A stretch of 62,961 nt of DNA, counting the filler, from Dugesia japonica (taxonomy: Eukaryota), in NCBI GenBank assembly GCA_001938525.1. It is 6 parts of 6 records of this genome, joined end to end, with 100 filler letters (N's around TTAATTAATTAA, not from the genome) between each part and the next. Parts side by side here need not be neighbours in the genome. Positions count along the whole stretch, not along the records: positions 1 to 13,119 come from MQRL01640162.1; 5 more parts are not named here. One strand, given 5' to 3'. This document shows, one piece after another, positions 1 to 27,400 of the stretch (within the stretch, counting starts at the first letter, position 1; each line of letters opens with the position of its first letter). The notes beneath the pieces are model-generated. The model had not been told where the DNA came from. It worked only from the letters and a program-made list of their open reading frames with translations, and did not search any database. The translations under genes and the position numbers were made by a program.

Positions 1-33
1 TATTATTTATTTATTATAATTATTAAAACAAAC

Positions 34-3000
34 CTCAGAAAACATATTATGGAACCAGCATTCTCTCGGAGTTTCTGGAATCATATTTGTCGCTGCTTGA
101 GTTCTTTCGAGGATAAACACTGCTGCTTGTATGATGGAATTATATTTCAATTTCATAATAATATCTTTGTTCTTTAAACTGTCTTGAGAATCGATTTTAT
201 CGATTTCAGACTGTAATTGATGTGCCTTCTTGTTCAGCTCATCATAACATTGTCCTAATGAAGAAACCCACAATTCATCCCACAGAACAGTAATCCGCCT
301 CAATTCTTTAATGAATACACTCACTTCATCTACTAGCACTTTATTACTATCGACGAGAACTTTTTTAATTTCATGATAAAGTGAATTGTTATTGGAATTT
401 TCATTTATTGATCCAACTAATGTTGGATAGATAATCAATTTACTACAATTATTGCTCGACACTGCCAATCGTTGTAATAATTCCGACATGCACATTCGAA
501 TCGTTTTATCACTGTGTTTTAATCGAGCAAATAACTGTGGAATCACATTTGTCCAAGATCCAGGAGGACTCATTTTTATTTTATTTATTATCGAATCTCG
601 TAAATATCTTGATCGTTTACCGAGCAGAGATAATATTCTCAAATTTGCTGTGGTTTTATTTTTATTACATAGATTATCTTTGCTTTTCACTGGAGTTGCA
701 TCTTTNNNNNNNNNNNNNNNNNNNNNNNNNNNNNNNNNNNNNNNNNNNNNNNNNNNNNNNNNNNNNNNNNNNNNNNNNNNNNNNNNNNNNNNNGCCATTT
801 CAAAGGTTATATCCGGATCAAGAGCTAAAATCGATTGTTTCAGTTCAAGTAGGAATGCTGAATCTTCATAGCAATCACCAAACCAATCGGATTCTGATTT
901 CATTTGCGAAGGACAAAAATTACTTTTCAGTAACAATTCAATGTTTGTGATCATTTCATTGGTAAACCCGTGTTTCTCTAATTTCAATGAAAAATCCACT
1001 GAATCCGAATTGAATCCAACTTCATCGAGAGATCTAGATCTATTCAGACACCATTGTGCAAGTGTCATGAAACTCTTATCACTGTTGTCTTGATTTCGTG
1101 ATTTACTTGCCAAAATTAGTAATTGGCTGCAAATATCAGTTACTGTCGATTGACATGTTTTTTCCATTGATCGATGTTGCGGAGAAACCAAAGGCAATCC
1201 ACTAATCCAGGGAACTTCGGCCAACTCAATTAGAAATTGTAAATTACTCGATATTTTACTGTCGCTACAAATAATACTCGAGAACGCATTTTTATCGTTA
1301 CATAACCACATAAATAGAGTCAACAAAGATTTCGTATTCAATTGACATTTAGAACTGTGTAAAATCGAATCACTTGTTTCGAATAAAAGACTTTCTTTTA
1401 AACTACTAGTTAATAACAAAAGAGCGTCGTTTTTTTTCTCTTTTTCCCATAGTAATTTAACTAATTCTCTTTCGAGTTGCATTTGTATAATCGGAGACTG
1501 GGAATTACTTAGAGAAACTTTTTGCATCATTTCTCGACCGAGAAACGTAGAAAATGAATGAGAAATTAAATTTTGGCATTTTTCAAAGTTGAAATGTTTT
1601 CTATGCCATTGAATGAGATATTTTTCGTTGGAAAACTGTTGCGGTAAATTGTAAGCTTTCTGAATTGTGTTACAGAAACTAATAACCGATAATGGCAGGA
1701 TAGTTGAATAATTTGAGAGATTCTTACAATCGACAATTAGATTTTCGGCGGATTTATTTGCTAATTTGAAAAATTTTAATCGTTCACTAATTAAAATGAT
1801 GTCGGAATTGAAAAAATTACTCGGAAAGTCACAAATCGATTGAATTGATGACAAATTCCCGATGAATTTTTCAGTGTCGGATGCTTTTTCTGGCGAATGA
1901 TCAACGACAGATCTGTACAAAATGTCTTCGCAATGATCAATTACTGATCTATATTTCCAGGTCAACTCATTTTGTCTAAGAGGAACACATTCATCATCTA
2001 AATTTTCATTATCCCATTTCGATAATTTACTAAGGCAAATCAGTCTTTCCCAATTTATACTCGATTTTTGTGCTTCTACCATTTGCGAGTTGGATTTCCA
2101 TAATTGAATCTGTTTTTTCCACAATTCCAATCCATCGATATTATTCAATAATTTATAGCAATCAGCAATTTCTTCCATACACAAAATAAACGAGCTGTGA
2201 CTAGTTGCTTTTCTCGTTAATAATCTCATTTCAGATGATTGCTTTATTCTTTCTGGATCATGGTGGTTTCTTACGTAATTTTCAAACTTCGTTAAAGCTA
2301 ATTCTAATTTCCCTACGGTTTTATCAGCCAATGCCTCTATCCAATCGAATTTACTACCATAAGTTTCTACTGACAACTGACTTAAACCGACAAGACTTTC
2401 CCAATTTCCTAATTTACTGAATGCCATTGATGTCAAAACAATGCAATCTTCTACTTCAGGCACTAAAATTCTCGCGGCAGAACTCGAATGAAAATTATTC
2501 ATATCCAAATGATGTTTGAGAATTTGCATTCCATGCCAAATAACAGTACTCCATTGACCGGAATATTGAGCTAATGCTACTATGAACAACCTCATTTTTA
2601 TAAACCATTCAATACAGACATGCTTATTAGTGACGAAAAACGTTTCTGTGGATTTATTAACAGATGGTAATCCAATACAACAGCCTTCATAGGAATTATA
2701 GAACATTTTCTCTAAAACATCTAGCAAGAGAATCATTAAATTCACTGACAACGACTGATCTTCTGGAGATTTTGTGGTGAATTTAGTCATTAATTTNNNN
2801 NNNNNNNNNNNNNNNNNNNNNNNNNNNNNNNNNNNNNNNNNNNNNNNNNNNNNNNNNNNNNNNNNNNNNNNNNNNNNNNNNNNNNNNNNNNNNNNNNNNN
2901 NNNNNNNNNNNNNNNNNNNNNNNNNNNNNNNNNNNNNNNNNNNNNNNNNNNNNNNNNNNNNNNNNNNNNNNNNNNNNNNNNNNNNNNNNNNNNNNNNNNN

Positions 3001-5523
3001 NNNNNNNNNNNNNNNNNNNNNNNNNNNNNNNAACACATCTTTATTATTGAAACTGCATCTGTCAATACTATCTATAATCCACTGGAAAATTGATTTACTA
3101 AAATCTATAGGAAATTTAAATGATCGTCCAGAGACCGACATCGCTTGAATGGATTTAATCTCTTCACTAAACGATTCCTGAGAGATTGGAGTATCGTTTT
3201 TACTAAGTAAATCAAAGTAAATCTTGAAACATTTACTCCTAATCAAATATGACGANNNNNNNNNNNNNNNNNNNNNNNNNNNNNNNNNNNNNNNNNNNNN
3301 NNNNNNNNNNNNNNNNNNNNNNNNNNNNNNNNNNNNNNNNNNNNNNNNNNNNNNNNNNNNNNNNNNNNNNNNNNNNNNNNNNNNNNNNNNNNNNNNNNNN
3401 NNNNNNNNNNNNNNNNNNNNNNNNNNNNNNNNNNNNNNNNNNNNNNNNNNNNNNNNNNNNNNNNNNNTGTTGTTGTTGTTAAATACTACCGATTTATTTT
3501 CATTCATTGTTTTTTTGAGTAAATCAAACGCGATAGATTTCGATTCAGAATTCAAACTTGAAGTGTTAATCATTAAACAAAGAAATTTTATGAAATCTGG
3601 AATCATTTCGGAACCGAGTTCTATTTTCGATACGGTATTCATGATGAAAATTGCGACCGAAGGAAATTGATGAATAACTGATGATTCTGTGAACAATAAA
3701 TATTTCGTAAATAGAACCGGAATAGATGGAACTAAAATTGAAGTAGGATCATCCCGTAATCGATCGTATAGTAACATTATTAAGTTGATATTGTATTTAA
3801 CAACGGGTTCCGCTTGTAACGGTTCGTAGGATTTCGTTTTAAAAGCATTACTTTGAACCAAACGAACTAGATTTGTACAATTCGATACTTTCATGAGGAT
3901 ATTAAGAGCTAATTCGAGGTCACTCAGTAGAATTTGATAGAATGTAGTCACACATTGAGATTTAGCGATTATATCGACGAGTCGTAGATATTTTTCCAGC
4001 ATTTTATTGTCAGAACAAGAACCGTAAAATATGCACGAATGTATCCAATTAACTGGAGATAGAATCTGTACGACTGTGTTTGGTTCGAGATTAATTTTCA
4101 CTAAGCAAATACTAATCAGATTCAAATAAGAGATTATCAGCTCTCGGTTATAATAATTGGTGTTGCTGCTACCTTCTTGGAGGATATGAGATTGGAGTGG
4201 TACAGATGTTCCGATCACATAACGAAATACACTTTGATAAACCGTTCCAACCGATTCGATTTTGTTCAAAATGAACAGCATGTGAAGAATAACCGTATTT
4301 GATTGTAGAAGAAGATTGTCGAAATCGATTTGTTTGCTGCATATTATTAAACTTTCGACAAATTTTTCAATTATACCAACAATGAAATAATTCGGTAGAA
4401 TTTCAGAGAAATTCTCCGAGAATTCCACATTAAAATTGACTTCGGTAACATCAGATATTTTACTGATACCCGCTGTAACACAAGATAATGCGAAACAGAA
4501 GAATTTGATTTTCATTTTGAGTTCATCGATTTGAGAACGTTCTTTGTCTATACGATGAATTCTAGATAACATCTGACAGTGTGTTAATACGTCTTTTTGG
4601 AGATTTGTCACTGTTTTCTTCAAATTAACCGGATCAGCTATCCAACACTCGTGTAAATCAACACTACGTTCGTACAATGACGCCATAGTTGTCAGATCTG
4701 TGTCCGGGTGAATGCACCACCCAATCATTATGTCGATAACATTGTGGAATCTCTGCACAACACATTCCGGACAATGATTGTAAACTCTGTTCAATATCAT
4801 CAATGACAGATTTAAACATTTCGGAAAACAGAGATTTTCAAAAAAGTATTCCCAACTGTGTAGAAATGTGTCTTTGTTTGATTTTAAGTTATTAATTACG
4901 CCATCAGTTGCAAATTCGATCATTTTCAGGAGCATTTTCAAAATTTGCAATGTGTACTGTTCAATTTGTAAATTCGTCATTTTATCGAATATTCGACACC
5001 AGAAATCAATAACAGCTGCATCACCGCGACGAATATTCAAATGAAGAAGATTCATCATTAATTGGCTAGTTACATTAATGAAATCGTCGGAACTTGCGGA
5101 ATCACAGATGCACAACTCTAAAATATTTATCATTTGATCGGAGAATTTATTCTGTGGAACTATTCCGTCTTGATTATTTATCAATAATAAGATTTCCTTG
5201 GCAACCCCTATTTTCTCTGTGTCACTATCAGATATCGATATTTTTCTAATCAATGGTGCAAGCGCGTTTAGCGGTTCGATTGTTCTTCGCATTTTTTTCA
5301 ATAAATCTTGTCGACGGCGTTTTAATTCGTTGTCATACTCTGTGATGACTTTCGTTTTATTAAGTTTTACTGGTTTTATCTCCTCAATTTCCCGGTCGTG
5401 TAATCTACTCATGATATCATAACCATTACTATCGATTTTTCTATAATTATTAGTGTCAGCCAAATAGGCTTTATTTTGTTCGTCGAGAAACGCTGGATCT
5501 AATATTTCTTTTTGTATGCACAT
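34..5523 (-). CDS. smg1: SMG1 PIKK-family kinase (nonsense-mediated decay), N-terminal ~1830 aa in one giant exon; kinase exons lie beyond the window start
   Basis: SMG1-typical motifs FHNVIDIMIGW, WTNVIPQLFARLKH, ELRRITVLWDELW and PETPRE. The ORF ends at a GAG|GTTTGT donor (GT at 33-32). The true start may be in an upstream exon. Confidence 0.9.
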
Positions 5524-5859
5524 TTGTAAATAGTTCTAAAATTAATATTAAAATGATGAAACGGAGAATTTATTTGATAGAAAAANNNNNNNNNNNNNNN
5601 NNNNNNNNNNNNNNNNNNNNNATTAACCCGTTCCAGGTAGGTCATGTTGCTCTGAATACGTATTTCAATCGGATTATATGCATTAATATGTTGAACAAAA
5701 ACATTTTCTATAATATAAACACATTTACAAACCAAATATTTACTTTTCTCGTTCTCAAATATAGAGAAAATATCATTCGAACATACACGCTATTTATTTA
5801 TAAATCCCATTAATACAGGATTGATTATAAAAGTCGCATTATAAAGATGTTTGATATTG

Positions 5860-6335
5860 AATGATGAGGAATATTGGGATAAAGAAAATTGTGAATGTGG
5901 AAAAGAAGAAATAGATGAAGATTAGAAAAAGGTGAGGAAGATTATAAATGTAGAATAGAAAGAAATGAAGATTATAAATGTAGAAATAGGTGAGGAATAA
6001 TGGGAATGTAGAAATAGGTGAAGATTAGGAATGTGGAAAAGAAGAAATAAATGAAGATTAGGAATGTGGAAAAGAAATAGATGAAGATTAGAAATGGGTG
6101 AGGAAGATTGGGAATGTAGTAAAGAAGAAAAGATGAAGATTAGAAATGTAGTAAAGAAGAAATAGATAAAGATTGGGAATATAGAAATAGATGAGGAAGA
6201 TTGGAAATATATGAAGATTAGAAATAGGTGAGGAAGATTGGGAATGTAGTAAAGAAGAAAAGATGAAGATTAGAAATGTGGAAAAGAAGAAATAGATGAA
6301 GATTGGAAATATAGAAATAGGTGAACAAATATTTG
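5860..6335. repeat. Purine-rich degenerate minisatellite (~GATGAAGATTAGAAATGTGGAAAAGAAGAAATA units)
   Basis: More than 10 variant units are visible; this explains the spurious ORF 6088-6495. Confidence 0.85.
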
Positions 6336-6339
6336 TAAT

Positions 6340-6837
6340 GTAGAAAGTTTGCTCGTCATAATAGATGACAGCTTGTTCACTAAGTGCAAGAATCGAGTCG
6401 GTTGAGTGCTTCCTCTTCAGGGGACCTTTTGATGGACTGTCAGCACATGCGTAAGGTATTTTTGATGAAAGTTTCCGATTGCAGTGCCAGGACATTTCAA
6501 AAAATATTGAAACTAATTCGGTTATATACTGTGATAGTTGGCGTTCATNNNNNNNNNNNNNNNNNNNNNNNNNNNNNNNNNNNNNNNNNNNNNNNNNNNN
6601 NNNNNNNNNNNNNNNNNNNNNNNNNNNNNNNNNNNNNNNNNNNNNNNNNNNNNNNNNNNTACAAATGACAACATGGAACAGTATGCCAGCTTTCCTTTGG
6701 AGAAATGAGATATCAAAAACAAAGATGTCATGTCATTTCTCATTATATCTCTATTCTATTGTCTGATAACCATAATAAATCTGTTAATTACTATAATTAA
6801 TTTCTATAATTATGCATCCTATTGACGCAATAGTACC
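6340..6837 (+). mobile_element. Merlin (IS1016/IS1595-like) DNA transposon remnant
   Basis: From 6361 reads IDDSLFTKCKNRVG*VLPLQ, then VFLMKVSDCSART and IETNSVIYCDSWRS (Merlin IDES.F.KRK..RGR and SDxW motifs). A candidate right TIR ends ...CAATAGTACC at 6837. Confidence 0.75.
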
Positions 6838-7055
6838 CAATTTCATAATTTTCACAGGAAATATCAAGTGTTTAAAGTTTTTCCCATCTAATTTTTAACA
6901 TAAATTCTAATTTCATTAAATTACCAGTTTAAGTTTAATTTATAAAAGAATTCAACAAATTGATTATTTAGCATAAAACAAAGCAAATTTTTTAATTAAA
7001 TTCATTTAAATATTNTGAAATTCAATATTTATATTTTCAAAGTAGCAAAATTTAC

Positions 7056-7612
7056 CCTATCAATGCCAACCAAAGAAGCCCCATGATGCAATAACTTCTT
7101 TACTGTGTCACGCATATAAGCTTGAAGTGCAAAATAAATAGGTGTTTCTTTAGCCTTCAAACAAATTAAATATTGGCATTAGCTTTAAAGAATTCTACTT
7201 CTGTTTCTACATTAACTTCAGCTCCACCAAGAACTAATAAATTAACTGTGGTCACATGACCATGTTGAGCAGCAAAATGAATCGGACGCCAACCACCCTG
7301 TCAACCCACGTAAAATCCATAGAAAAATTATTAAAATACATACATCAGACATTGAATTAACATCGGCTTTATTATCAATCAACCATTTTACAAGATCCCG
7401 ATTTCCTTGAAATGATGCTTCGATTATTGCATTAGTTTGATAGGTCTAATAATTTAATATTACAATGTTTTGTTCTTGATTATACTTACATTTCTACCAT
7501 CATTCATAGTTGTAAATTTATTTATAAAATCTGGATTACTTTTAAAGATATTAATTATTTCTTTCAAATTTCCGTTTCGAATTGATTCGAACCAAGTATC
7601 TAATAAATCCAT
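7056..7612 (-). CDS. Small ankyrin-repeat protein; exons 7612-7490, 7445-7344, 7297-7199, 7154-7056 (3' end uncertain)
   Basis: Spliced through 44/46/44-nt phase-0 GT-AG introns it reads MDLLDTWFESIRNGNLKEI...|TYQTNAIIEASFQGNRDLVKWLIDNKADVNSMSD|GGWRPIHFAAQHGHVTTVNLLVLGGAEVNVETE|AKETPIYFALQAYMRDTVKKLLHHGASLVGIDR. Not in the ORF track. Confidence 0.88.
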
Positions 7613-8502
7613 TTCTAAATTTATATATTAATTAAATGTAATTTATCATTTTTTTTCAAGATCAGATGAAAAAAGGAATACTATATTCATTGTGAAATAC
7701 GTATTTACCCATATAAACCATATTAATAAAACAAAGGTATTTAACAATTTTAAATAATAACGACTAGTTACCTCTTGTCATAAAAAAGGCTTTATTTAGT
7801 AATAGAGAAACAAATTAATTAAATTGTGAAGTAAATTCAATTATTAATAAAAATATTATATTGATAAAACATAACTTAAATCATGAATCAAATCGTAATG
7901 ATAAAATTAGTCTATAAATTAAAATTTTGATTAAATTTTTTTGTAAAATGAAATTCAATCAGTAGTTTAATAGTAAAATTATTTGTAAAGTTTAGTTGCA
8001 GTTTATTTGTCAAATTAAATTCAATCAATAGTCTAATAGTAAATAATCAAAAAAATATTCATAAGATCTTTTATTAGTTTTAAAAATTAATTATCAAAAT
8101 TAATTTTTACAAAAAGTTGAAAGGTCATATAGGTTAAAAATCATTTAATGAAGAGCCAAAATTTCGAGATTAGTGATTTATTGCAAAAATATTAAAGAAG
8201 ATTTATGGAAAATAAAATTAATAAAATAAATTATTTCGGGAATTCGTTTATAAGCGAGAGTTTCTTCTTTAACATAATCAAGAGTTACGTGATTGAGTTA
8301 TCAGAATGTGTTATCTCAAAAGTGACGCATTTCGATTTCTTTTATGAAATCATAGATTATGGAATCACAAATTGCAACTTTGAAGTCGAATGATAATTTC
8401 CCAGGAATCACTAAAATTATCAGAAATTTGTTTTATTTTAATAAGCTAATCTACAAAATATGTAAATGTGCAATTCTTCTACCAATAATTTGCGGTGCCA
8501 AT

Positions 8503-8602
8503 AAGTCAATTCCTGACGAATACAAAGTTGAAATATCGATTCAATCTCAAAAAATCAATAACAAATATATTTTTGATCGAAGCTTTTATTTTAAATGAAT
8601 TA
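8503..8602 (+). ncRNA. Penelope pLTR fragment with degenerate minimal type-I hammerhead ribozyme
   Basis: AATTC-CTGACGA-A-TACAAAGTT-GAAA-TA-TC-GATTC; same repeat as 61856-61947. Confidence 0.6.
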
Positions 8603-11600
8603 ACTTACTTATTATTATTGTTGAATTGCTTATTGTTTTTAACTCGAAACTTACCAGGAATTGATTGATAGTGTTTGGAATGCAATAATATTTTACTTTG
8701 GATTTATTTTGATTATTTTATATAATTCTGATCTTGAAGTCTATTGTAATTTTATTAATTGTACTATTTTAATAATTACTAAATTTCGTTATTATAATTC
8801 TTTTTATTAAATTGCTGTAAATAAATTTAGTTTTGATAAAATGGTAGCAGCAACAAATACTGACTCTATCACAGGGAGGCTGTTGCCGAAAGTTTTTGGC
8901 AGATGCGATGACCTCAAACAATTTATAAAGTTGTTGGGGTGAAACATACAGTCTGAAAAGGAAGCCAAACGAATAGTCAAAAGGGAAGAATTAACAAAGA
9001 AAAAGGAGTAGAAGGAAAGTCAATCAGGAACAAAGCACCTACGATGAAAAAGAAATAGTACATTCATCAATCAAAGAAATCACAAGGAATTAGTATGAAT
9101 AACCAGTATGGCTAAAGCAGAATAAAATTAAGTAATAAATAAAAAAATTAAAAAATACTGAGAAGATTGGATAAAAGATCTTGGAGGAATTAATTTGGAC
9201 CACATTGATGATGATAATCAAAAATAATTAAGAAAATAATTATAATAAATCAAGGAAATTATGTTTGAAAAAACATTTAATTACCAAAAAATATTAATTA
9301 AGACGGAATTAAAGTAAACTAAAATTAAGCATAAATCCGTTTTTTACGAATAATTTGGCTCCAGATAACCGCAGAGATTCGGAGAAAGAAAGTCTGAGAA
9401 GAAATATTAAGATTTTGTAACCAAAAAACTCTGTCACCATCAGAAAGATCACCACAAGGGTTGGAAAAATGGGCCAATAAGGGTTCAAAAAATAAAAATG
9501 GAACAAAGCCACGAAGATCACTTGGCGTTCCAAAAATAAACGCCAATTAGAGTTCTAAAACTCTATAAAAAATTTTTGAAATTGGCGCAATGACCAATGA
9601 AACGACAGAAATTCGAATAAAAAATAGCTGGCCAATACCAAACAAATCGGGGTGTCACCGTAAATGGTATTTAAACCCACTAGTTTTAGACAGAAACATG
9701 CTCAAAAAACATTCACTTTAACCGTTTAACAGTTGCGTTATAATCGAGAAAATCCAGTATTAATTCTATACGAAATATTGTATCACACTCGGGGAAATTT
9801 ACTATTTAAAGGAAAATATTCCCACAAATCATTTATCAGCACCTATTTGGAAATCGATCTCGAACGACAATAATCAAGTAATTCGGTTTACTACCAACGT
9901 AAAAATAACTGTTTATTGAAAAGAAAAGGAACAATTTGTTCAAAACAGATATTGGCAATTTGGAAACTGATCAAGGAAAAAAACTCGCAATTAAACCGAA
10001 ACCCGTTGCAGAAAATACTCTCATTAAAATAAAATATTTTTCTTTGTTTCTATTCACTGTATTATGTGTGAAATATATATTTAAACTGTTAACAAATATA
10101 ACTTTCAAATTATTATAGTTAAATTATTAAGTTAGAAATTGAAAAGGCGAATAATGAAACTTTATTTATCATATAACCATAAAAAACAATTTTACAAATT
10201 ACCCAGATATGACTTATAACTGCGGAATCTGTTTTTCCGTAATACTATTACAACTATCGGTGACCTATGCCACAAATAACTCTTTTCGCTGTTATTTATG
10301 ACTGCATGTAAATCCNATGGTCCTGAGTTTAGCATCCACATCGAATATGGGAAATTTCTTCACCGAGAAGCTTAAGCATGCTTACGTTTCACTGCTATTA
10401 AGAAAATCATGCTGATAGTCTTAAAAGGGCATGATAAATCCGTAGAAAAAATTCCATTTGAGGATTCGACAGGAATGAAATCTAAATTTCCACCAACTTA
10501 GTTAATTATCAATCGACAATCAGATATTAATTGCTTCTGAAAATCATCCGTTAAAACAGCATTACATCATCCCTCTGTAATTTATGAGTTACTATTGACC
10601 GTATCACTGAGTCACTAAAAAACATTTCACTCCTTCGCTAAAGAAATATGCCACGGTGTCTGCCATATTGTAGCAACCTGATGACTCATTCTCGCCAACC
10701 AGCATGCATCAACACTAGCCAGTTTTACGCTCCTAGTACACAATAGTAATTTCATTGATGACTAAAGGAGATTAAGTGGTAACGATCTAAGTATGGAATT
10801 CCTGGCAGTGTACACACATAGATTGTTAAATTTAAATAGCGTTAAATATTATAACTGCAAAGTAAATAACTCCAATTCAACTTTGATTTCGTGTTGTTAT
10901 CAATCGTCATGCCGATATTGTTGGTGTCAATATTAATTAGTTATTAGGTTTACTGATCTTCTAATTATCTTGCTNGGTATCACATTTATCACCGTCGCTA
11001 TTGCCTGATACTTTCATTATCAATAATGTAGCACGAATATTAGTATTATTGCGGTCAATTTTATGACTATTGTTACTAATATTGTTAATATTACTATTAT
11101 TATTAATATTGATATCATTATTTCATTATTATTAGTATTAGCACTATGCATACTATTGTTATGATTATTTCTAATATTTTATGATTAAAATTAGATTCTG
11201 ATTAATAACGTTAACCTCACAAGAATTGGGCTTTCTGTTAGTCACTAGCATTATCATCCCGGTCAGTATTATAATAAAGGATGTTAATTTCACGATGACG
11301 TTAGATTTATTTTTGTTCTGGGTCATTGAAATTTAAATTTTCGGGTAATCAGGGTGTACTGTTAAAAGAAGGAAGGAATCATAAATTTGGTTATCAAAAC
11401 CCACTTGATTGGTTAGGCACACTCCGCTCCGTTTAGTCTATTAGTAATAATTATATTCTGAATACTGACGTCTGCAGGGCAGTCCATAACTGAATTCTGG
11501 TTATATTTTAAGGTAGCATAAGTTAATTTCTCGGTAACCCAGATCCAACTAGTGTGATTGAATTCAGTATTGGCGATTTTTTTTGTCGAGAACTCCGGCA

Positions 11601-11752
11601 GTTCCCATCACTACCCACCTAGGGATATATAGGGAACGGTTCAACTACAACGCCTGGATAAGTGCATAATGATTTTGCATTCAAGAGTGGTGGTATGAAA
11701 AAATTAGATTCTTTCCTTCGCAACTACAAATAAACCTTATTATATTTAGACC

Positions 11753-11935
11753 ATGATGTCAGAATTGAAAAATGCCCTTCACACCATTCGTAAACGACGC
11801 AAGACTGCCCGTCTTAAACAGTTACTCGCCCATCTTTTATCGCGACGCAGGATCGAACATCCCGATGAGACGCACTTGTGTCGTTTCGTCGAGATGTTCT
11901 CTCTGTATAATCCTGTAGACCTCAACGAAGAATGA
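11753..11935 (+). CDS. LTR-cassette ORF1, 60-aa basic helical protein
   Basis: Homologous to 45889-46071 (TIRK.R...RLKQL..H...R.R.EHPDET.L..FVEMF); preceded by a TTTAG acceptor. Confidence 0.75.
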   Translation: MMSELKNALHTIRKRRKTARLKQLLAHLLSRRRIEHPDETHLCRFVEMFSLYNPVDLNEE

Positions 11936-12125
11936 TAGCAATAAGTGAGTATAGAAACACTGGATTTTGATTACTTTTGTTTATAATAAATGTGTTAGAA
12001 TAGTTAATCCATTTACTAACTCTTAAAATCCTTTTTCGTGCTAGTAAAAAATAGTTAAACAAGAACTTTCGAGTTCTTTTTCGTAATAAATTAAACATGT
12101 TTTGAAAAGTAATGTTTTATTCTAG

Positions 12126-12484
12126 TGCACTCTTTACTAAATAGATCGCAGGCCCCGACCAAGAAAGTCCGTGAGTCCAGCAAGAACTTAGAGATGACCT
12201 ACGACGTTTACAAACTCGCTAAACGTCGCTGGGAAGCCGATACTGCAAACGCCAATATCAAGGTGAAAAGGTACAAATATAAGTGTATGGCTTTTAAAAA
12301 TGAAGCCGAAGCATCCCACACACAAGATAGAGTATGGAAAGCTCAAATAAAGACATTCACAGAGATTATTCGGTCCTACCAAGACCGCGAGAATAAACTG
12401 GTCCGGGATATCTTGAAATTGAAAACAGCGATGCCCCTCGAATCATTAATGGTCGATAAGGGTACACAAACGGCACGCCCGTGA
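12126..12484 (+). CDS. LTR-cassette ORF2, coiled-coil protein with C-terminal DKGTQT (LC8 motif); exon lacking its own ATG
   Basis: Homologous to 46858-47197 (PTKK.RE.S...E.T.D.YKLAKRRWE...KVKRYK...EIIRS..D.ENKLV.DIL...LM.DKG); begins at TTCTAG|TG. Confidence 0.75.
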
Positions 12485-12611
12485 ACTCATTTATCTATAA
12501 TTTTATCTTAATAAACTTGTTTATATTCTTAACTAAATTTCTTGGTGTTATTGAGTATCGAAAGGATTATTATGATTAGGTGGTAGTAAAAGTTAATAAC
12601 TTCTTGTTTAG

Positions 12612-12973
12612 TGCCCCGGATCCAACTTCCAACTAACCTAAAACGGTGCCATCGGCTGATACAGAAACTATTATTCGAGCGCCATCTCAAAAGACAAAAT
12701 GAGAGGGCTCTGTTAAAACAACTCTCTCAACGTAACAAACTAATTAAAAAACAAGACATGATTGTGAAAAAGCAAAACGACGTAAATGAACAAACAAAGC
12801 AGCTCTTACAACACAAAGTGGAATTTTTGAAGCGGTATATCGTGGACCTATCGCGACAACTTGGTAACGCAGCATGGGTTCATTGGAACGACAATGATGA
12901 TGAGGCTGCCTTTAATTTTTTTGATATTGATCCGACCCAGTGGTTAGAACCGGGCGCTTTAGATTTGTTGTAA
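12612..12973 (+). CDS. LTR-cassette ORF3, coiled coil plus acidic/aromatic tail; exon lacking its own ATG
   Basis: Homologous to 47321-47703 (EFLK.YI.DLSRQ.GN, AAFNF, QWL.PGALDLL*); begins at GTTTAG|TG. Confidence 0.75.
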
Positions 12974-13119
12974 ATTTTAAGCATTAATAAACTTTAGTCT
13001 CCATACTTTGTTAATTTTGAATAAGGGAAAATAAGGAACCTGAAGTAAAGGTGCACGAGTGAGAACCTCCCGTAAAGGTCGAAGGTCAACCGCTCTGTAC
13101 CGAAAATCTTACTTAGGGG

Positions 13120-14510: not shown

Positions 14511-15159
14511 GTACTATTACCTTGTTTATATTATTTAGACACAATATTTACAACAAAACACATAAATATTTGAAAGCTATTAATAATGATTACCAATATC
14601 ATTTACAAAGGAAAGGTATCACAAGAAATAGTAGGCAAAGAAAGTTTTTAATTGATAAACCGTCACAAATCGTTAATAAAAGTAGAAAGTATACAATTAT
14701 TCTTTTAAATCAAGAAATTTTAGAATCATAGGTTTCAAGAAACAAAACGAAATGAACCATTTACAGTATAAGGATTAAAAAGACATTTGTTTTTTGTATG
14801 ACATCGAGTACAGCACTTGAATTTAGCATATTATGTGCATTTTCAATTCGTTTTTCGTTTAAATCATGATATACCTTCGCAATATTTTTGATAATCGAAT
14901 TATCACAAGAAACAAATAGCTCTCATGATATACAGATCTCACAAACGAAAGTTATATTCATTTAGTAATTATTAATATCAACCTTTATTATTTCTTTGTT
15001 AAGACATTGTTGAATAATTAAGATAATTTTATTTAGAAAAATCAATAAATATACTTGTTATTATTACTTAATTTACTTAATCTGCTTAATCTTTATTATG
15101 ATAACTGTCATTTTGAAATAATCTTTCTATTGAACATCTCTCTTATGAAGTCATAACTA

Positions 15160-15252
15160 TTTAAAATAAAAGCTTCGATCAAAATTTGGTTTTTCTTGGT
15201 TTTTTGAGATTAATTTGATATTTCGACTTAGTTTTCGTCAGGAATTGACTTT
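15160..15252 (-). ncRNA. Penelope pLTR fragment with hammerhead motif
   Basis: Minus strand reads AAGTCAATTC-CTGACGA-AAACTAAGTC-GAAA-TATC-AAATT. Confidence 0.6.
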
Positions 15253-15754
15253 TTAATTTATTCAAGATTTATGTTTATAATGGTAACATTTTTTGAATAA
15301 ATTTTTGTAATTAATTTTAATTGGTTAATTTTAATTCTTATTTACATTTAATTATTTAATTTAATTATTGTAAATTATTTATTTTAGGATAGTCTTCTTT
15401 GATTAGTATTTCTTCATGTTTTTTACCTATGTAATGTAGAAATGTAGCCTGTTCCTAGTGTTTTCCATGTTATGTGATGTTGTTCTTTGTTTGTATTAAA
15501 AGTGTTTGAAGACTTTGCCTTCTTTCAGAACCCTCCGGAACAAGAATTAAGGACTATGTAACACAAAAAGAAAGCGAAGTCTTAGGCTTATACAAGTCTC
15601 ATAGTACCAACCGCTACTGAAGTTAGCCAACTAATTCGTCACCGAGATTATTTAATGCGCCTCTACAAGCGACATGCAAGTCACGAAGGCAATGAACGGT
15701 ATCGCCTTCAGCTGGTCAAGACGACAAATTTTTACTGGTTGTTCCAAACCTAAG

Positions 15755-16400
15755 CAATTTGCAAATAGGTTATTAGAGTAAATCACATAAGGTAATTACG
15801 TTTCATAGGAAAATCATAAAAGGTTATTACGTTTCAGAAAGCAAATTATATAAAGATAATTACAGTTCATAAGCAAGTTGCGAATGAGTATTGTATTTTA
15901 AGAGTAAATTACAAAAGGTAATTGCATTTCAGAATGCAAATTATACAAAAGGTTTTACAATTCATAAGCAAATTGCGAATAAGTATTGTATTTCAAGAGT
16001 AAGTCATAAAAGGTTATTACGTTTCATAAGAAAATCACAAAAGGTTATCACGTTTTAGAAAGCAAATTATACAAGGTTATTACACTTCATAAGCAAATTA
16101 AAAAAGGTTATTACGTTTCAAAAACAAATTAAAAAAAGGTTATTACATTTCATAAGTAAATTGCAAATAAGTTATTGTATCTTAAGTATGAATTACAAAA
16201 GTTTATTACTTCTCATAAGCATATTACATAAGTAAATTACAGCTGAGTGATTGCATCTCATAAGCCAATTACAAATAGGATATAATCAGTTATTAAATCA
16301 AATTGAAATCCATCATTAAATCAAGTTATAAAATCAGTTATTAAATCAAGGTACAAAATCGATCATTAAATCGAAGTATTAAATTAGTCAATAACTGCAA
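15755..16400 (+). repeat. ~30-bp tandem array in the 3' internal region of an LTR retrotransposon
   Basis: Repeated AAAGGTTATTACGTTTCATAAGCAAATTAC-like units ending ~200 bp upstream of the PPT at 16599. Confidence 0.8.
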
Positions 16401-16614
16401 ATAGATACGAAGGACATCATAGCGGTAAAATGCGACTTTAAAATGAATCCCTAGAAAATTTAGGACAAACAATCTTGAGGATTCTGTCAAGTGGGCTGGA
16501 GATCGATCGGAGCTAGAAAGCACAATGAATGACCACAAAGAAGCCGAGATACATAATCAAATCGCCACGAGTGTTAAATTCCGAGACGGAATTTTTTCGG
16601 AAGGGAGTGTATTT

Positions 16615-18537
16615 TGTTTGGGTTAAACACCTGGTATAGAAAATAAAAACAGTGATAGATAAATCCGAAATTCAAAAGAATATCACAAGAAAATAAAACG
16701 AAGAGTCCAGACAGAGGAAGGACACAGTTCAGTTAAAAGAAAGAAATAATTAAAGAGAAAACCATATTATGGAGCTAAAAATTACGAAATAACCAGGAAG
16801 ATCTAGAATTACAGCAAGAAACAACTCAGAAATAAGAAAGCCGAAGAAGAAAAGAAGTAATAAAAGCTATTAGCAGGACAGAGAAAATAAATTAAATGAA
16901 TAAATTAACGAAAGAAAACGACTAAATTGAATTAATTTTAGATCAGAAACGAAAATGAAACATCTAATTAACAATCAAGAAGAAAATCAAATAAATAATT
17001 TATTTATTTAAATAAAATAAATCATACAAATTAAAATAATTTATTTTAAAAAAAGAAAATTAAATTTATACGAAATATGAGAAAATAAAGACTTCCTATT
17101 GGGACAAAATTAGCAATTATAAAAATAATAGTCAAAAAAACATCTGGGATTTCGAAAATCTCAGTTAAAAAATCATAGCAAGACCAAGAAAGAAGATATA
17201 AGGGTCTGAAGACTGGCCAATTGAACTCCAATAATTTCGGAATTTCAAATTTTTTACCAATAAGAAAAGTCAGGTGACAAAACCTGATTAAATTAACCAA
17301 TAAAAACGTAAAAATGCAATTCAACAAGGAAATGAACGAGAGTGTATAAGAAAACCGATATAAATACCGATGGAATTTTCAGCAAAAAATCAATCAAAAA
17401 ATTTAGTTAAAACCAATCGAATTAGTAGAAGACTACGAAGTAATGAATGGATTTTTAACTCATGCAACGGTTTTCGACTTACAGGATCACAGAAGTATTA
17501 AGACCCAAAATAATCGATATCGTTAGGTAGATGAGAATCCTAAATTAATGATTAAGTGGAATACGTCAAGTTAATACAATCGGTGGTCATGATAAGTCAA
17601 ATGATTCCTGGATGCTTGCTCCAGATCGAGATGCAGTTCATGTTAGTTTTTTTGTTTGATTGATGCAATTGTTGATTTAATGTGTAAGTGGTAGTATTAT
17701 CAATGATAATATAATTTTCAATAACCGGATTTCCTTTTTTGTAATAATTAGGTGAATTTTTACCAGTAATTAAAGTTCAAATTAAATCATCATTTATTAA
17801 TTGAGTAATAAGCAAAATACTCAATTAAAATCGTTCATACTAGGAACATCTACTACCGTACTATGGTTCTTCGTTCATGATAGATTAAAATATAGATTTT
17901 ACACTAAAATAATTTCTCTTTTTCTAGGAAGCAGTAATCAATACCTATCATGGAGTACCTTTTGAATGAAAATAGTAATGAAATTCGACTCGAACTGGTG
18001 ATGCTAATTGTTAATAATAGACTTAATGCCAACTCGTGTTGATATAGTTTCAGGATTATTTTTAATATTCAATTAAATTACAATGAGGTATATTGATGAT
18101 TTCACCTTTATAAAATCAGAGCGTTGGGTTAGTAATAAGCTCACACTACTCAATATCATCGCCAATAACTTTTAAAGTTAATTATAATAGCCATAACTTT
18201 AAATACTTGACAACGTGCTAAAACATCATTCACCATAACGAGTACAGATATGAGGGTAACAGTGGTTAGATCTAGATATATAATGCAATAAACTGACACC
18301 ATTGACCAATAGACAATAAAGATGAAGAGTGTCCATAATTTAAAACGAGTATCACGAGAAGGAATCCGAACCAAAGAAATGCGATTCTGTACTCGAACCA
18401 CGGGTTACGAGTCAACGGCTCAATTCCAAGGATCTTGATTTTTGGGGACATCAGATTAAATTCTTCGCGGGGTTATTCTAAGTCATACCACTCTAGACAT
18501 AATTTAAATTGAAAACACCCTAGATAAAACCCAAACA
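16615..18537 (+). mobile_element. Complete 1.9-kb 3' LTR of a Gypsy-type retrotransposon (related, cassette-less subfamily)
   Basis: TGTTTGGGTT...AACCCAAACA perfect 10-bp terminal inverted repeat with TG..CA ends; polypurine tract GGAAGGGAG at 16599-16607; TATAAATA at 17359. Confidence 0.8.
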
Positions 18538-18539
18538 CT

Positions 18540-19180
18540 TCTATTGCACAATAAGTAGGATTCATATCATCTAAGGCTCCACTTGACTCTTTGTTTGACA
18601 TGTACTGTCCATCAATTTCAAAAATCGAGTTTCAAAAAAGAACTTGTTCAAAATGCAAAATACTTCACAGTCAAATTTGAAACGTCATCGACACATTCAT
18701 GAAGATGAATATGTTATTGTCACATCTGCTACCGAAAAAATGGATATGACAAGATTATGATAAGCAGGACAGAGAGATTTCAGTTATTTGAAACTTGTTT
18801 GAGTGGTTATAGAATGCATTCGAGAACGCTGAAAATTAAATCAATATTAACCGAAATGCTACTGACTTTTAGTTAATTTTNCCATAGTGATAGANTTTAG
18901 TTCTGTTTTAGATTTAGTTTATCTTTCTGAACAATATAATTTAAAATTCTTCGGGTTTCATTTATTTTAATTACTATTTTTTGGTTTTATTTTGCTATGA
19001 AAGTGAATTTAATAAGTATTATTGAACTAAAAAATTCCAAGTTTATACATTATCATGTTTATAACGGGAAAAGGCCGCCGTGCGTATGTACGCATAGCTA
19101 TGTATGTACGCGGTGCAACAAGAGGATGAAGGGGTTTCAAAATCTGGAACTAATTACGTACATAGTATGTGGATAACTCT
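18540..19180 (+). mobile_element. Zator-like DNA transposon 3' remnant
   Basis: FDMYCPSISKIEFQKRTCSKCK...LKRHRHIH C-terminal zinc finger. The end TACGTACATAGTATGTGGATAACTCT resembles a Zator TIR. Confidence 0.5.
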
Positions 19181-24307: not shown

Positions 24308-24417
24308 GTTACTTGTTATAAGTCTTTTCGTTTTTATGATTTGTATTTTGTGTATTGAATTTTAAAAAATCTAAATTCATTGAAAAAAACAATTCAATTA
24401 AATTGTTTATAGTTAAA

Positions 24418-27400
24418 ATGGTTAGTAATCAGTTGATTTGTAAAAAGGTTTTTAAAAATAAATCAGGATTAGCAGATCATATTGGATCAAGATGTTGTCT
24501 TTTAGACAGAACAAGATTTAATTGTTCAAAATGTCTAAAAACGTTCAGAACTATGAGGGAATTGACCGAACATTTGAATTCTACTGATTGTGGAAATTTA
24601 AAGAAGGTTCCGTTGTTTTGTGAAGTTTGTTATGAAAAGTTTTCAAGACAAACTCATGCAAAAGCCCATTTTAATTCAAAATCACATAAAAAAATGGTCA
24701 ACAAAGTATTTTTTGAAGACTTACCTAGAGAAGAAGTAATTGATTTCAATCCAGAAATTTGAGACATCTTCAGAATGTACCAAAAAATCTATGAAATCGA
24801 ATATTTTAAAGAAAGTAAAGTTGAATTAACTATAAATGTTAAAAGTTTAGAAATACCAGTAAAAATGATTAATGAATTTCAGAAAGAAATCCAAGAAATT
24901 ATTACAAAGTATTTCAACTATGAAAAAAAGATTATTGTCCGAATCAGTGTAAATTGTAATTATAATAAAGATGTTAACGGTGAAGAAGACGAAAAAATTT
25001 TTAATTCGTATTCAAGTAATAAACAAATTACATTAACAAGTGAAATTAATGATAAAGTTAATAATATTTTAAATCACCTTCAAACATAAATTGAAGATGA
25101 AGATAGACGTTAATCAGGATGGAATCTAAATTATATAGTTGATCATAAAATTGAACTTTCAAAATATCAATCTATAGCTGGAGGGAAATCATCTTATCAA
25201 AAATTATCTTTTTCTAAACAAGGTGTCATTAATATTAAAAATAAAGATGAAAAATGTTTTTCCTATTGAATTTTAGCCCATAAACATTTATGTATTGATC
25301 CAACTAGAATAGAAAAATATATTCCTTATTTAGATGAATTAAATACTATTGGAATTAAATTCCCTGTTCATATTTGTTATGTAAAAAAATTGAAAAGTTA
25401 AATGAATGGAAAATAAATTTATTTGTTGTAACCGAGTTTAAACAACTTGAACCTTTGTATATTTCGCATTATGAAACTAAACCCAAACCAAAAGAAAATA
25501 AATGTAATTTATTAGTTTATAAAAAACAATTATATTTTATGCGGATATAAAAGTGTTTTATACAAAAAATAGAAATAAAAATCATTTGTGTATTAGATGT
25601 ATGAATTGTTATTATAGCAAAGACTTATTAATTAATCATCAAAAAGAATGTATTAATCATGAAATTAGTAATGTAGTTTTTTCTAAATATCAGAACTATT
25701 ATTACAAAAATAAAATACTTTTTTTAATTTATGGAGACTTTGAATGTTGGACTAATTCATCAACTAAAAAACAAAAACCACTTTCCATTGGTATTTATAT
25801 AGTAAGTAAATATCAAACTTTAATTCGAAATTAATACAAAGAATTTTATGGAGAAAACATTCATCAAGATTTCTTTGAATTTTTAAATGGACTTATTAAC
25901 AAATTAAAAGACAAAAGAAAATAAATTAATTGAAACTTATATTGGAACTAACCATCCAGAATTTACTAATCAAAATTGTAGATATTGTGATCAAGAAATG
26001 GGATTTGAAACTCCAGTAATTGATCACGATCATTCCAATGGTGAATTTAGAGGTTATTCACATTCTAAATGTAATTTACAAGATAAATCGATAAAAAATT
26101 TATTTATTTCTTTTTACTTTCACAATGCATATGGATATGATATTCATTTATTTTTTAAAGAAGTAATTATAAAATATACAAAAGAAGTTAGAAAAAAATT
26201 CCTCATAGTGATGAAGTTTACATTTCCTTTGAACTTGTAAAACCTAAAGAACCCTCAATTATATTTATAGATTCATTAAGAATGTGTACTCTTACTTCAA
26301 TTGAAAAAGTGGGAGAAACGTAAAATCAATCAGGAAAATATAATAATTTAAAATTTTTTAATTTAGCTCCGAAGAAAATTTCATTTCCTTTTGTATATGT
26401 AAAAGTAGAAAATATAAATGAAGTAATTGAATTATTAAAAAGAAACCATCCACCAACAGAACAAGATTTTTTCAATATATTAAGACAAAACAAAATAACT
26501 GATCATTAATACAATGAATTTTTACAAGATTTTATACAATTCAATAATCTTTGGGAATACATGTTACATTACATGAAAATAGATGTAATTATTTTAGCTG
26601 ATAAATTTGAAAATTTTAGAGAAACATGTTTAAATAATTATCAAATTGATCCAAATTATTGTTATTCAGCTCCGGGTCTAAATTGGAATGCAGGTGTGAA
26701 ATTTACTCAAGTAAAATTAAAATATGCTCAGAAAAAAACTTATGATAGATTTATTAAAATTGAAAGATGAGTTAGAGGTGGTTATTCTGGTGTTTGTGGA
26801 GAAAGACAAGTTTTTGGAAATAGTAAAAGAAATGATAAAAAAATAAATAATGCTCAATTAGATGATTTATTAAATATATTTACAAATCCTGAACAATATC
26901 TTCCAGATGATTATTTTGAAGAAACATTTTTAAATATTTAGATGAGAATTCTTTGTATGCTAGTTGTATGACAAAAGCATTACCAACTGGTGACATCTAT
27001 GAATGTAAGGATTTAAAATATATTAAATTAACAGATAAAATTAATTATGTTTATGAAGTTGATTTAGAATATCTAAAAAAGATTCATGAAAAGACTAAAT
27101 ACTTTCCATTAGCACCAGATCCTTTAAATATTACAAAAGAAATGTAAGCACCTTATCAATTATCTTTTGATAAAAAGTTGAGTAAGAAAAATATTAAATT
27201 AACATTGAATCAATTTCATAAACAAAATTATATTATTTTAGGATCAACATTCCATTTGTATATTTCTTTAGGAATGAAAATATTATAAATACATTCTAAA
27301 TATAAAATGACTACAAAACCTTAGTTAAAGGATTAGATTCAATTTAATATCAATCAGAGAAATGAAGCTAAAAGAACAAACGATGTTTTTGGTGATGTCT

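What the first reader, a model, noticed from the sequence alone, without database searches (positions are those of the whole stretch)
8932..13119. Giant LTRs carrying a multi-gene accessory cassette inside the LTR (copies at 8932-13119 and 43868-47958)
Seen: two diverged, colinear >4-kb elements on different contigs. One starts TGTTGGGGT and the other ends ACCCCAACA, an exact reverse complement with TG..CA ends. The same start follows a polypurine tract at 16615, which identifies these as LTRs. Both hold ORF1-ORF2-ORF3 in the same order, separated by non-conserved AT-rich spacers. Protein is conserved while codons change (CGT CTT AAA CAG TTA vs CGC CTA AAG CAA TTA = RLKQL). None resembles gag, pol or env. 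Known: giant LTR elements with ~5-kb LTRs (Burro) exist in planarians, and single LTR-encoded genes exist in retroviruses (MMTV sag, HIV nef). Inference: this is a complex-retrovirus-like accessory unit downstream of the LTR promoter (CCAAT boxes ~9474-9635, TATTTAAA 9668), so each solo LTR could be a self-contained expression unit. I do not know of a description of this.
Basis: partly seen in the sequence, partly recalled or inferred. Interest (0 to 1): 0.88.

Follow-up and report, generated by a model that had tools for sequence, protein, structure and literature searches.

The report
Retrotransposon LTRs carrying small gene cassette
Two diverged repeats of more than 4 kb, in what is likely a flatworm genome, are likely retrotransposon long terminal repeats (LTRs), and each holds the same three small protein-coding frames under purifying selection, predicted to be spliced accessory genes; we found no report of several genes packed inside one LTR.

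Summary
Copies 1 (8932-13119) and 2 (43868-47958) share three colinear frames at 59% amino-acid identity, with saturated synonymous change (pS 0.88, pN 0.27). The 16615 element is complete (16615-18537, 1923 bp). It has 10-bp inverted ends and a purine run upstream, and shares copy 2's last 180 nt, but lacks the cassette. Each frame begins at a homologous, strong splice-acceptor-like AG. ORF2 and ORF3 have no conserved ATG, so they are likely exons needing a leader. Copy 2 has a fourth frame. ORF2 is a predicted long helix ending in an LC8/dynein-light-chain motif; ORF3 is a basic helix with an acidic-aromatic tail. No homologs were found. Not shown: paired LTRs around gag-pol, PBS, TSD, Burro identity, transcription start, splicing. 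Three RNA runs were nearly silent, with no joints. The claim that a solo LTR is a self-contained expression unit is unproven. Verdict: likely a new variant of gypsy-type LTR element with a modular accessory cassette.

The parts
8932..13119 (+). Copy 1: likely LTR, 5' end intact (TGTTGGGGT), about 90 nt of the 3' end cut by the contig end
   Evidence: summed contig depth of run X1 rises from 35/95 to 442 across the boundary
43868..47958 (+). Copy 2: likely LTR, about 500 nt of the 5' end cut by the contig start, 3' end intact (ACCCCAACA), followed by an (AAT)n run
16615..18537 (+). Copy 3: complete 1923-bp related element with 10-bp perfect inverted ends, likely a 3' LTR; no ORF1-3
   Evidence: 0 of 300 shuffles hold the inverted 10-mer; last 180 nt align to copy 2's last 180 nt, 0 of 2000 shuffles, score above all 5464 tiles; no tblastn hit of ORF1-3
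16599..16607 (+). Purine run (PPT-like), ending 7 nt before copy 3
15780..16232 (+). Tandem array (31/63/95-bp periods) in the likely internal 3' region before the purine run
9424..9675 (+). Conserved non-coding block with a CCAAT cluster and a TATA-like site; likely promoter/enhancer (copy 2: 43897-44121)
   Evidence: blastn E 3e-19; 0 of 300 shuffles; X1 depth peak 2507; TATA-like site not conserved
11750..11935 (+). ORF1, copy 1: acceptor-like AG, ATG at 11753, 60 aa, basic N-terminal third
12126..12484 (+). ORF2, copy 1: likely phase-1 exon, predicted single 90-residue helix with heptad pattern
12452..12475 (+). LC8/DYNLL-type motif VDKGTQTA in the predicted disordered tail of ORF2
   Evidence: only K/R-x-TQT match in 125,918 six-frame residues; motif definition from PMC3078936; copy 2 keeps I-D-K-G-T up to its gap
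12612..12973 (+). ORF3, copy 1: likely phase-1 exon, predicted 86-residue helix, basic start, acidic-aromatic tail
12974..13119 (+). Conserved non-coding 3' block, with AATAAA 12 nt after the ORF3 stop in both copies
   Evidence: X1 depth 8045 in the last bin
45886..46071 (+). ORF1, copy 2 (ATG at 45889)
46263..46607 (+). ORFX, only in copy 2: acceptor-like AG, ATG at 46278, 109 aa, 48% GC, no homolog
   Evidence: one copy only, so selection is untested
46858..47197 (+). ORF2, copy 2 (end lost in assembly gap 47198-47308)
47321..47703 (+). ORF3, copy 2, broken (frame break near 47425, in-frame stop at 47614)
47704..47958 (+). Conserved 3' block and end of copy 2; motifs lie 125, 94, 83 and 69 nt from the end, against 126, 92, 81 and 67 in copy 3

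Best explanation
Copies 1 and 2 are diverged repeats of more than 4 kb that share end motifs with a complete 1.9-kb element behind a purine run, so they are likely LTRs of a gypsy-type retrotransposon lineage, and the three selected frames inside them are likely accessory genes, predicted to be expressed as alternatively spliced last exons. Shown: the anatomy, the selection on protein, many diverged copies, and a cassette whose content varies (copy 1 has three frames, copy 2 four, copy 3 none of them) between conserved 5' and 3' blocks. Inferred: a transcript likely started at the CCAAT block splices a short leader onto one of the acceptors and ends at a nearby poly(A) signal, giving one small protein per mRNA. 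ORF1 and ORFX carry their own ATG. ORF2 and ORF3 would get their start from the leader; 3 of their 4 exons begin with TG, so a leader ending in A would build the AUG at the junction. Predicted roles: ORF2 is a coiled-coil adaptor that binds the host hub protein LC8, for dimerisation or dynein-linked transport of the particle. ORF3, a basic helix plus acidic-aromatic tail, is a transactivator of the LTR promoter. ORF1 is a small basic nucleic-acid-binding helper. The copies are likely silenced in the tissues sampled.
For: Selection: pS 0.88 vs pN 0.27 over 291 codons; each part is significant alone (Fisher p 2e-14, 2e-17, 4e-5, 2e-24); all 6 shifted sense frames give dN/dS 0.9-5.8. Family level: between 10032 and 12991, the 7 bins that are at least half ORF have summed X1 contig depth of 351 or more, the 13 other bins 114 or less. 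LTR. Acceptors: the AGs sit at homologous positions and rank 4, 2 and 4 (with ties) of 96 YAG sites in copy 1, and 1, 5 and 12 of 108 in copy 2. Synonymous-type changes start right at the AG. LC8 motif: it matches 5 of the 6 specified positions of the natural motif, plus the affinity-raising Val-5, and lies next to a predicted helix as PMC3078936 describes. Precedents: env ORFs of insect gypsy elements are spliced to a short peptide or to an AU that completes the start codon (bioRxiv 10.1101/2023.08.03.551782); PIWI silences planarian gypsy elements (PMC8532177).
Against: No copy is seen paired around gag-pol, and no PBS or TSD is seen. The purine run is short and 7 nt off. The 5' likeness of copy 3 to copy 1 vanishes without the terminal 15 nt (1417 of 2000 shuffles), and its CCAAT region does not align above chance (160 and 111 of 300). 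RNA: only 27, 16 and 19 reads laid, of 13.6, 11.6 and 10.5 million. Most are under 90% alike and many are A-run artefacts; there are none on ORF1 and no joints. No conserved donor was found. AATAAA is common here (15 in copy 1, 18 in copy 2), and only the one after ORF3 is positionally conserved. Copy 2's ORF2 exon begins TT, not TG. Of the 15 listed X1 differences inside the ORFs, 12 change the amino acid. I read these as drift of copy 1 after insertion, since nearly all depth carries the other letter, but they are only part of the 40 best-supported rows of 519. The roles of ORF1 and ORF3 rest on composition only. X1 may be the source sample.
Confidence: 0.55

Rival explanations
1. They are LTRs with selected genes, but the cassette works like nef or sag. 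It is read mainly from the 3' LTR of full elements by splicing from a donor in the leader or gag. The true genomic start site may lie in the conserved 3' block, making the cassette U3. Solo LTRs would then not express ORF2 or ORF3.
For: No conserved donor was found inside the LTR. The TATA-like site at 9668 is not conserved. The 3' block is one of the two most conserved stretches, and in vertebrate retroviral LTRs most conservation lies in or beside R-U5 (PMC2664473). The clearest RNA signal, about 13 reads from about 4 starts in one run, is in that block. Env precedent.
Against: A conserved CCAAT block lies upstream of the cassette (0 of 300 shuffles; depth peak). ORF1 and ORFX have their own ATG. 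Copy 2's tail shows no significant fold (z -1.36).
Confidence: 0.22
2. The cassette is an operon-like unit resolved by spliced-leader (SL) trans-splicing, the SL's terminal AUG supplying start codons.
For: Flatworm leaders end in ATG and resolve polycistronic RNAs (PMC12582326). The frames are 130-190 nt apart, each with an acceptor and a poly(A)-like signal. ORF1 and ORFX would be in frame with a leader AUG. ORF2 has a second, in-frame CAG in both copies (12152, 46884).
Against: The main acceptors of ORF2 and ORF3 are phase 1, out of frame with a terminal AUG. The second ORF2 acceptor is weak (rank 67 of 96 and 17 of 108), and coding constraint starts upstream of it. No leader-like loose ends at the acceptors appear among the rows shown (368 rows not shown).
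Confidence: 0.08
3. The units are not LTRs but a self-standing mobile element with short inverted ends (a non-autonomous DNA transposon or a fragment of a larger viral element) that carries its own genes.
For: TG..CA inverted ends also fit Ginger-like DNA transposons (recalled). No gag or pol was found among 14 long frames and 7 short read-through stretches. A Polinton-like capsid frame lies 3.3 kb downstream of copy 2.
Against: The inverted ends are only 9-10 bp. Copy 3 follows a tandem array and a purine run, as a 3' LTR would. No transposase-like frame was found. Copy 1 has no Polinton link, and copy 2 ends sharply at a microsatellite.
Confidence: 0.1
4. The frames are exons of an ordinary host gene family, or decayed remnants that only look selected.
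For: Splice acceptors and higher GC are what host exons show. Copy 2's ORF3 is broken. RNA is nearly absent.
Against: Each frame ends in a stop. 2154 contigs of one run lay on copy 1, up to 77 at one site. The frames sit between terminal inverted repeats. Selection is strong. No homolog was found among 1.84 billion representatives.
Confidence: 0.05

Closest known systems
Burro (GYPSM1) giant gypsy-like LTR retrotransposons of planarians (PMC6431247, section 7 read; original paper Grohme 2018 not held)
   Same: AT-rich, likely flatworm host, multi-kb LTRs, many copies; tandem repeats are marked on the Burro map; an accessory ORF and apoptosis/ubiquitin domains are known in the family.
   Different: The section read describes extra domains in the polyprotein and one upstream accessory ORF, and mentions no genes inside the LTR; its figure could not be seen. 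Sequence identity with Burro LTRs is untested. Two of the three listed BURRO1 oligos were searched and do not match the window, which is uninformative.
MMTV sag and primate lentiviral nef (PMC2664473 passages)
   Same: Protein-coding frame inside an LTR.
   Different: One gene each, in U3, in LTRs of about 1.3 kb or less, in vertebrate retroviruses. Here three or four separate frames lie in a >4-kb LTR with no sequence likeness, and their U3/R/U5 position is unknown.
Spliced env of insect errantiviruses (bioRxiv 10.1101/2023.08.03.551782 passages) and extra ORF3s of bdelloid LTR elements (PMC5408684 passages)
   Same: An ATG-less accessory exon completed by a spliced leader; lineage-specific gain and loss of extra ORFs, some coiled-coil.
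   Different: Those ORFs lie in the internal region between pol and the 3' LTR, usually one per element.
Plant Ogre elements (PMC6431247)
   Same: LTRs of 1.9-6.5 kb, spanning the sizes of copies 1-3.
   Different: Their 1-2 extra ORFs are in the internal region, not the LTR.
LC8/DYNLL client proteins (PMC3078936 abstract and passages)
   Same: A TQT-type motif in a disordered tail beside a coiled coil.
   Different: Binding was not tested here; it is a motif match in one full copy and a partial match in the other.

Membership tests
LTR of a Ty3/gypsy-type retrotransposon | TG..CA ends with short inverted repeats | tested here: met
   10 bp within copy 3; 9 bp between the copy 1 start and the copy 2 end
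LTR of a Ty3/gypsy-type retrotransposon | Polypurine tract directly before the 3' LTR | tested here: inconclusive
   9-purine run 7 nt before copy 3 only; none before copy 1; copy 2's 5' end is missing
LTR of a Ty3/gypsy-type retrotransposon | Two direct copies flanking gag-pol | not testable with these tools
   No genome held; no related loci in viral or metagenome contigs
LTR of a Ty3/gypsy-type retrotransposon | Primer-binding site after the 5' LTR | not testable with these tools
   Copy 1's 3' end is cut off; copies 2 and 3 are followed by sequence not starting with TGG, as a 3' or solo LTR would be
LTR of a Ty3/gypsy-type retrotransposon | Target-site duplication | not testable with these tools
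   No insertion has both host flanks in the window
LTR of a Ty3/gypsy-type retrotransposon | Many diverged copies with a sharp boundary | tested here: met
   2154 contigs of run X1 laid; depth step at the 5' end; depth is not a copy number
Burro | Giant polyprotein with Gag, MATH/BIR/BCL2, env-like, PR-RT-RH-IN | not testable with these tools
   No internal coding region is linked to copies 1 or 2
Burro | Multi-kb LTR | tested here: met
Burro | Sequence likeness to Burro1-4 LTRs | not testable with these tools
   No Burro sequence on hand; original paper not held; no supplement for PMC6431247
Retroviral LTR-encoded accessory gene (sag/nef type) | Selected reading frame inside the LTR | tested here: met
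   given the LTR reading
Retroviral LTR-encoded accessory gene (sag/nef type) | Located in U3 and read from spliced RNA | tested here: inconclusive
   No start site, poly(A) site or joint in three RNA runs
Retroviral LTR-encoded accessory gene (sag/nef type) | Homology to a known accessory protein | tested here: not met
TIR DNA transposon (Ginger-like) | Terminal inverted repeats of tens of bases or more (recalled) and a DDE transposase | tested here: not met
   Inverted ends of 9-10 bp; no transposase family among the frames scanned
SL trans-spliced operon | Acceptors in frame with the leader's terminal AUG, or followed by their own ATG | tested here: not met
   Fits ORF1 and ORFX; the main acceptors of ORF2 and ORF3 are phase 1 with no conserved ATG
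LC8/DYNLL client | [D/S]-K-x-[T/V/I]-Q-[T/V]-[D/E] motif in a disordered segment near a coiled coil | tested here: met
   VDKGTQTA, 5 of 6 positions plus Val-5; tail pLDDT under 50 after a 90-residue helix
LC8/DYNLL client | Physical binding to LC8 | not tested

The most novel reading that the evidence does not exclude
In this lineage the LTR itself is a modular gene carrier: a promoter-driven, alternatively spliced multi-gene unit whose cassette is gained, swapped and lost between conserved end blocks. Every solo LTR left by recombination would remain a working expression unit for an LC8-binding adaptor and a transactivator, able to act in trans on full elements and on host cells.
Probability: 0.28. 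Interest if true: 0.82.

Novelty: new variant of a known kind. Interest (0 to 1): 0.63.

Why it matters
LTRs are treated as regulatory DNA and are seldom scanned for genes. The exceptions found in the literature searched are single frames in vertebrate retroviral LTRs (sag, nef, and putative frames in some HML LTRs). A selected set of three to four genes inside an invertebrate LTR would explain why some LTRs became giant, would add a hidden protein repertoire that annotation pipelines mask, and would mean solo LTRs can remain protein-coding. If a gene-bearing stretch of several kb lies in R or U5, reverse transcription must copy an unusually long strong-stop DNA or terminal redundancy, which is directly testable. 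The LC8 motif gives a concrete host target to test. That this is not in print rests on ten full-text searches of open papers (six of them aimed at this question). The original Burro paper, its supplement and Repbase could not be seen and may already note these frames (my estimate about 20-25%).

Tried and rejected
Own-genome search: no genome is held.

Homolog searches, all blank: ORF2 and ORF3 in 5.8 billion proteins, near lengths only; ORF2 profile in 1.84 billion representatives, all lengths; viral and metagenome contigs by protein. By a 3'-block motif: 0 viral matches and 37 metagenome matches, of which 0 of 37 show any blast likeness and all are 47-63% GC, so chance. ORF1 and ORFX were not searched in the large protein sets.

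Weak hits rejected: Pfam ADIP, TRAF_BIRC3_bd, TPR and EMG1 are all far below cut-off and mostly coiled-coil bias. PHROGs gave E 0.002-0.007. PDB sequence hits were E 0.08 or worse. Atlas hits were unnamed and low in recognition. Foldseek found nothing for ORF2 in BFVD or ORF3 in PDB; plain long helices are uninformative there. The ORF2-ORF3 complex job gave no answer (score 0.06).

No listed holder of the stretch was on record as RNA.

An antisense frame also shows low dN/dS in each ORF. This is the expected mirror of third positions; the frame was not pursued as a gene.

Fusion of the frames into one protein: ORF1 has no conserved phase-1 donor. The G|GT near the end of ORF2 is GC in copy 2, with the codon kept, so this is disfavoured but not excluded.

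Frames in the middle spacer (10150-10800, 11330-11750) have no counterpart in copy 2. No tRNA genes. The earlier-findings look-ups returned nothing. PMC6673714's phrase 'ORFs within the LTRs' means ORFs between LTR pairs. A six-frame family scan of the whole contigs was not obtained, so decayed gag/pol remnants outside the stretches scanned are not excluded.
Full report
SETTING. The window is six contigs joined by N-linkers, with about 27% GC. The long frame at 7-5535(-) is SMG1 (Pfam E 1.5e-29). Its only relatives of near length were an unnamed protein at 60% identity and a Trichobilharzia kinase at 21% (2 of 5441 candidates). The host is thus likely a flatworm; 'planarian' is an inference from AT-richness. 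No genome is held, so everything rests on the window, four sequencing runs and blank database searches.

THE OBSERVATION. Copy 1 begins TGTTGGGGT at 8932 and runs to the contig end at 13119. Copy 2 runs from the contig start at 43868 to ACCCCAACA at 47958, where an (AAT)n run begins. These are the only two exact matches of the 9-mer. Four blocks align in order: a non-coding block (9424-9648 with 43897-44121), ORF1, ORF2, and ORF3 with the tail. Copy 1 lacks about 90 nt at its 3' end and copy 2 about 500 nt at its 5' end, so the two ends belong to different insertions.

SELECTION. Over 291 aligned codons, amino-acid identity is 59%, pS is 0.88 (saturated, so dS is undefined) and pN is 0.27. Differences fall 106/58/188 on codon positions 1/2/3, and each of the four aligned parts is significant alone. 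All six shifted sense frames give dN/dS of 0.9-5.8; one antisense frame per ORF mirrors the signal, as expected. Run X1 (kind not on record, possibly the source sample) laid 2154 contigs on copy 1. Between 10032 and 12991 the 7 ORF-rich bins have summed depth of 351-11,802 and the 13 others 17-114. Depth is not a copy number, but many more copies stay within 85% identity over the frames than over the spacers. Against this, 12 of the 15 listed differences inside the ORFs change the residue. In those rows nearly all depth carries the other letter, so I read them as private drift of copy 1; they come from the 40 best-supported rows of 519. Copy 2's ORF3 is broken at two places, so that copy has also decayed.

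ARE THEY LTRS? The start at 16615 differs from copy 1's (13 of 15 identical), and by itself is weak: whole 5' parts reach p about 0.013, and the CCAAT region is not above chance. It closes at 18537 with a 10-bp perfect inverted repeat (0 of 300 shuffles), giving 1923 bp. Its last 180 nt align end-to-end with copy 2's last 180 nt: 93 identities, 0 of 2000 shuffles, 2 of 2000 without the terminal 10 nt, and a score above all 5464 other tiles. Four motifs lie at matching distances from the end (125/126, 94/92, 83/81, 69/67 nt). Local alignment alone was not significant (70 and 84 of 1000). Upstream lie a 9-purine run ending 7 nt before the TG and a 450-bp tandem array, as at the 3' end of an internal region. 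The frame before the purine run recalls a decayed integrase or chromodomain tail (from memory), but Pfam gave no such hit. So copy 3 is likely a 3' LTR, and copies 1 and 2 are its long relatives. Pairing around gag-pol, PBS and TSD could not be tested. I put the LTR reading at about 0.85.

A MODULAR CASSETTE. Copy 3 has no ORF1-3. Copy 1 has three frames. Copy 2 has a fourth, ORFX (109 aa, 48% GC, own ATG 15 nt after an AG), between ORF1 and ORF2, with no counterpart in copy 1. The gene content therefore varies between conserved end blocks.

HOW THE FRAMES ARE LIKELY READ. In both copies each frame is preceded by a T-rich tract and an AG at the homologous position. These rank 4, 2 and 4 of 96 YAG sites in copy 1, and 1, 5 and 12 of 108 in copy 2, the last cut by a gap (my own crude score, and T-rich spacers bias it). 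ORF1 has an ATG 3 nt after the AG in both copies. ORF2 and ORF3 have no conserved ATG, are conserved from the first base after the AG, and are in phase 1, so they need an upstream exon. Three of the four begin with TG, so a leader ending in A would form AUG at the junction. A strong donor-like GTGAGT follows an A just after copy 1's ORF1 stop (11945), but copy 2 lacks it, and no conserved donor was found. Insect gypsy env genes are completed this way, by a short peptide or an AU (bioRxiv 10.1101/2023.08.03.551782, passages). Each frame is followed by AATAAA or ATTAAA within 12-153 nt, but only the one after ORF3 is at the same place in both copies, and the hexamer is common here. SL trans-splicing (PMC12582326, passages) fits ORF1 and ORFX but not the phase of ORF2 and ORF3.

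EXPRESSION. Three raw RNA runs (two oligo-dT, one cDNA; about 25, 25 and 6% read) gave 27, 16 and 19 laid reads. Most are under 90% alike and many are A-run artefacts near 9121-9157. A few fall on ORF2 in all three runs, and about 13 in the 3' block in one run. None falls on ORF1, and there are no joints. Expression and splicing are not shown. Planarian gypsy elements, including Burro, are held down by PIWI (PMC8532177, passages) and are under-counted in poly(A) libraries (PMC6884822, passages), and active subfamilies may be under 85% alike. These points excuse the blank but do not support the model.

THE PROTEINS. No homolog was found by sequence, profile, language-model features or fold; ORF1 and ORFX had only the family and PDB scans. 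ORF2 is predicted as one helix (residues 14-103, mean pLDDT 80, pTM 0.38), with 68% hydrophobic a/d positions in its best heptad register and a disordered tail holding VDKGTQTA. [quoted passage not shown] It is the only K/R-x-TQT among 125,918 six-frame residues of the window; the looser natural pattern hit twice. Copy 2 keeps I-D-K-G-T up to its gap. ORF3 is predicted as one helix (9-94) with net charge +8/+5/-7 by thirds and a conserved acidic-aromatic tail, the layout of a small transactivator; this is inference from composition. ORF1 is basic in its first third.

MECHANISM. Most likely (0.55): a gypsy-type lineage has moved its accessory genes into the LTR, where a promoter at the CCAAT block drives alternatively spliced mRNAs, one small protein each, with ORF2 recruiting LC8 and ORF3 boosting transcription. 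The main rival (0.22) keeps the genes but reads them nef-style from the 3' LTR, using a donor outside the LTR, so that solo LTRs would not be self-sufficient. SL trans-splicing (0.08), a non-LTR mobile unit (0.10) and host exons or decay (0.05) trail.

COMPARISON AND NOVELTY. Burro elements are the obvious candidate family (PMC6431247, section 7 read whole). That text puts the extra domains in the polyprotein and in one upstream ORF and mentions none in the LTR, but its figure, the original paper, its supplement and Repbase were not seen. PMC11410931, PMC13238120 and PMC13309565 (passages) add nothing on LTR frames. Known LTR-borne frames are single ones: sag, nef and putative HML frames (PMC2664473, passages). 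Extra ORFs of bdelloid and Ogre elements are internal (PMC5408684, passages). PMC3315482 was read in passages only, for the host gene. Six searches aimed at genes in LTRs or at Burro found no description of a multi-gene LTR cassette. I file this as a new variant of a known kind, not as a proven Burro member.

VERDICT. Real, selected and probably undescribed. The LTR status is likely but indirect; expression and function are untested. Interest 0.63.

Noticed in passing
window 50222-52857: Polinton/Maverick-like fragment: double-jelly-roll capsid frame 51223-52242 (Pfam DJR-like_dom E 4e-8) continuing to 52536, with small frames around it; 50213-50553 is 70% like 28972-29310.
   Followed up: partly
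window 7-5535 (-): SMG1 kinase encoded in one 5.5-kb open stretch with assembly gaps; 60% identical to an unnamed 1846-aa protein.
   Followed up: partly
window 15511-15753: Broken reading frame behind an acceptor-like AG in the likely internal 3' region upstream of copy 3; no Pfam hit, no likeness to ORF1-3. Possibly another accessory exon.
   Followed up: partly
window 17928-18130: Strongest acceptor-like site in copy 3, followed by a broken frame at 30% GC; possibly a decayed cassette gene of its own.
   Followed up: no
window 10250-10500 and 11413-11607: Broken sense frame and a 64-aa antisense frame in copy 1's middle spacer, with no counterpart in copy 2.
   Followed up: partly
window 18560-18760: Frameshifted C2H2-zinc-finger-like remnant directly after copy 3's end (pattern recalled from transposon proteins); no Pfam hit in the two frames scanned.
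   Followed up: partly
window 8500-8600, 15158-15265, 36814-37069, 61696-61946: A roughly 100-bp repeat, often as inverted pairs, likely the ends of a MITE-like DNA element; one copy lies 330 nt upstream of copy 1.
   Followed up: no
window 24340-24762 and 61144-61518 (-): Host-like exons: C2H2 zinc fingers and a homeodomain (Pfam).
   Followed up: no
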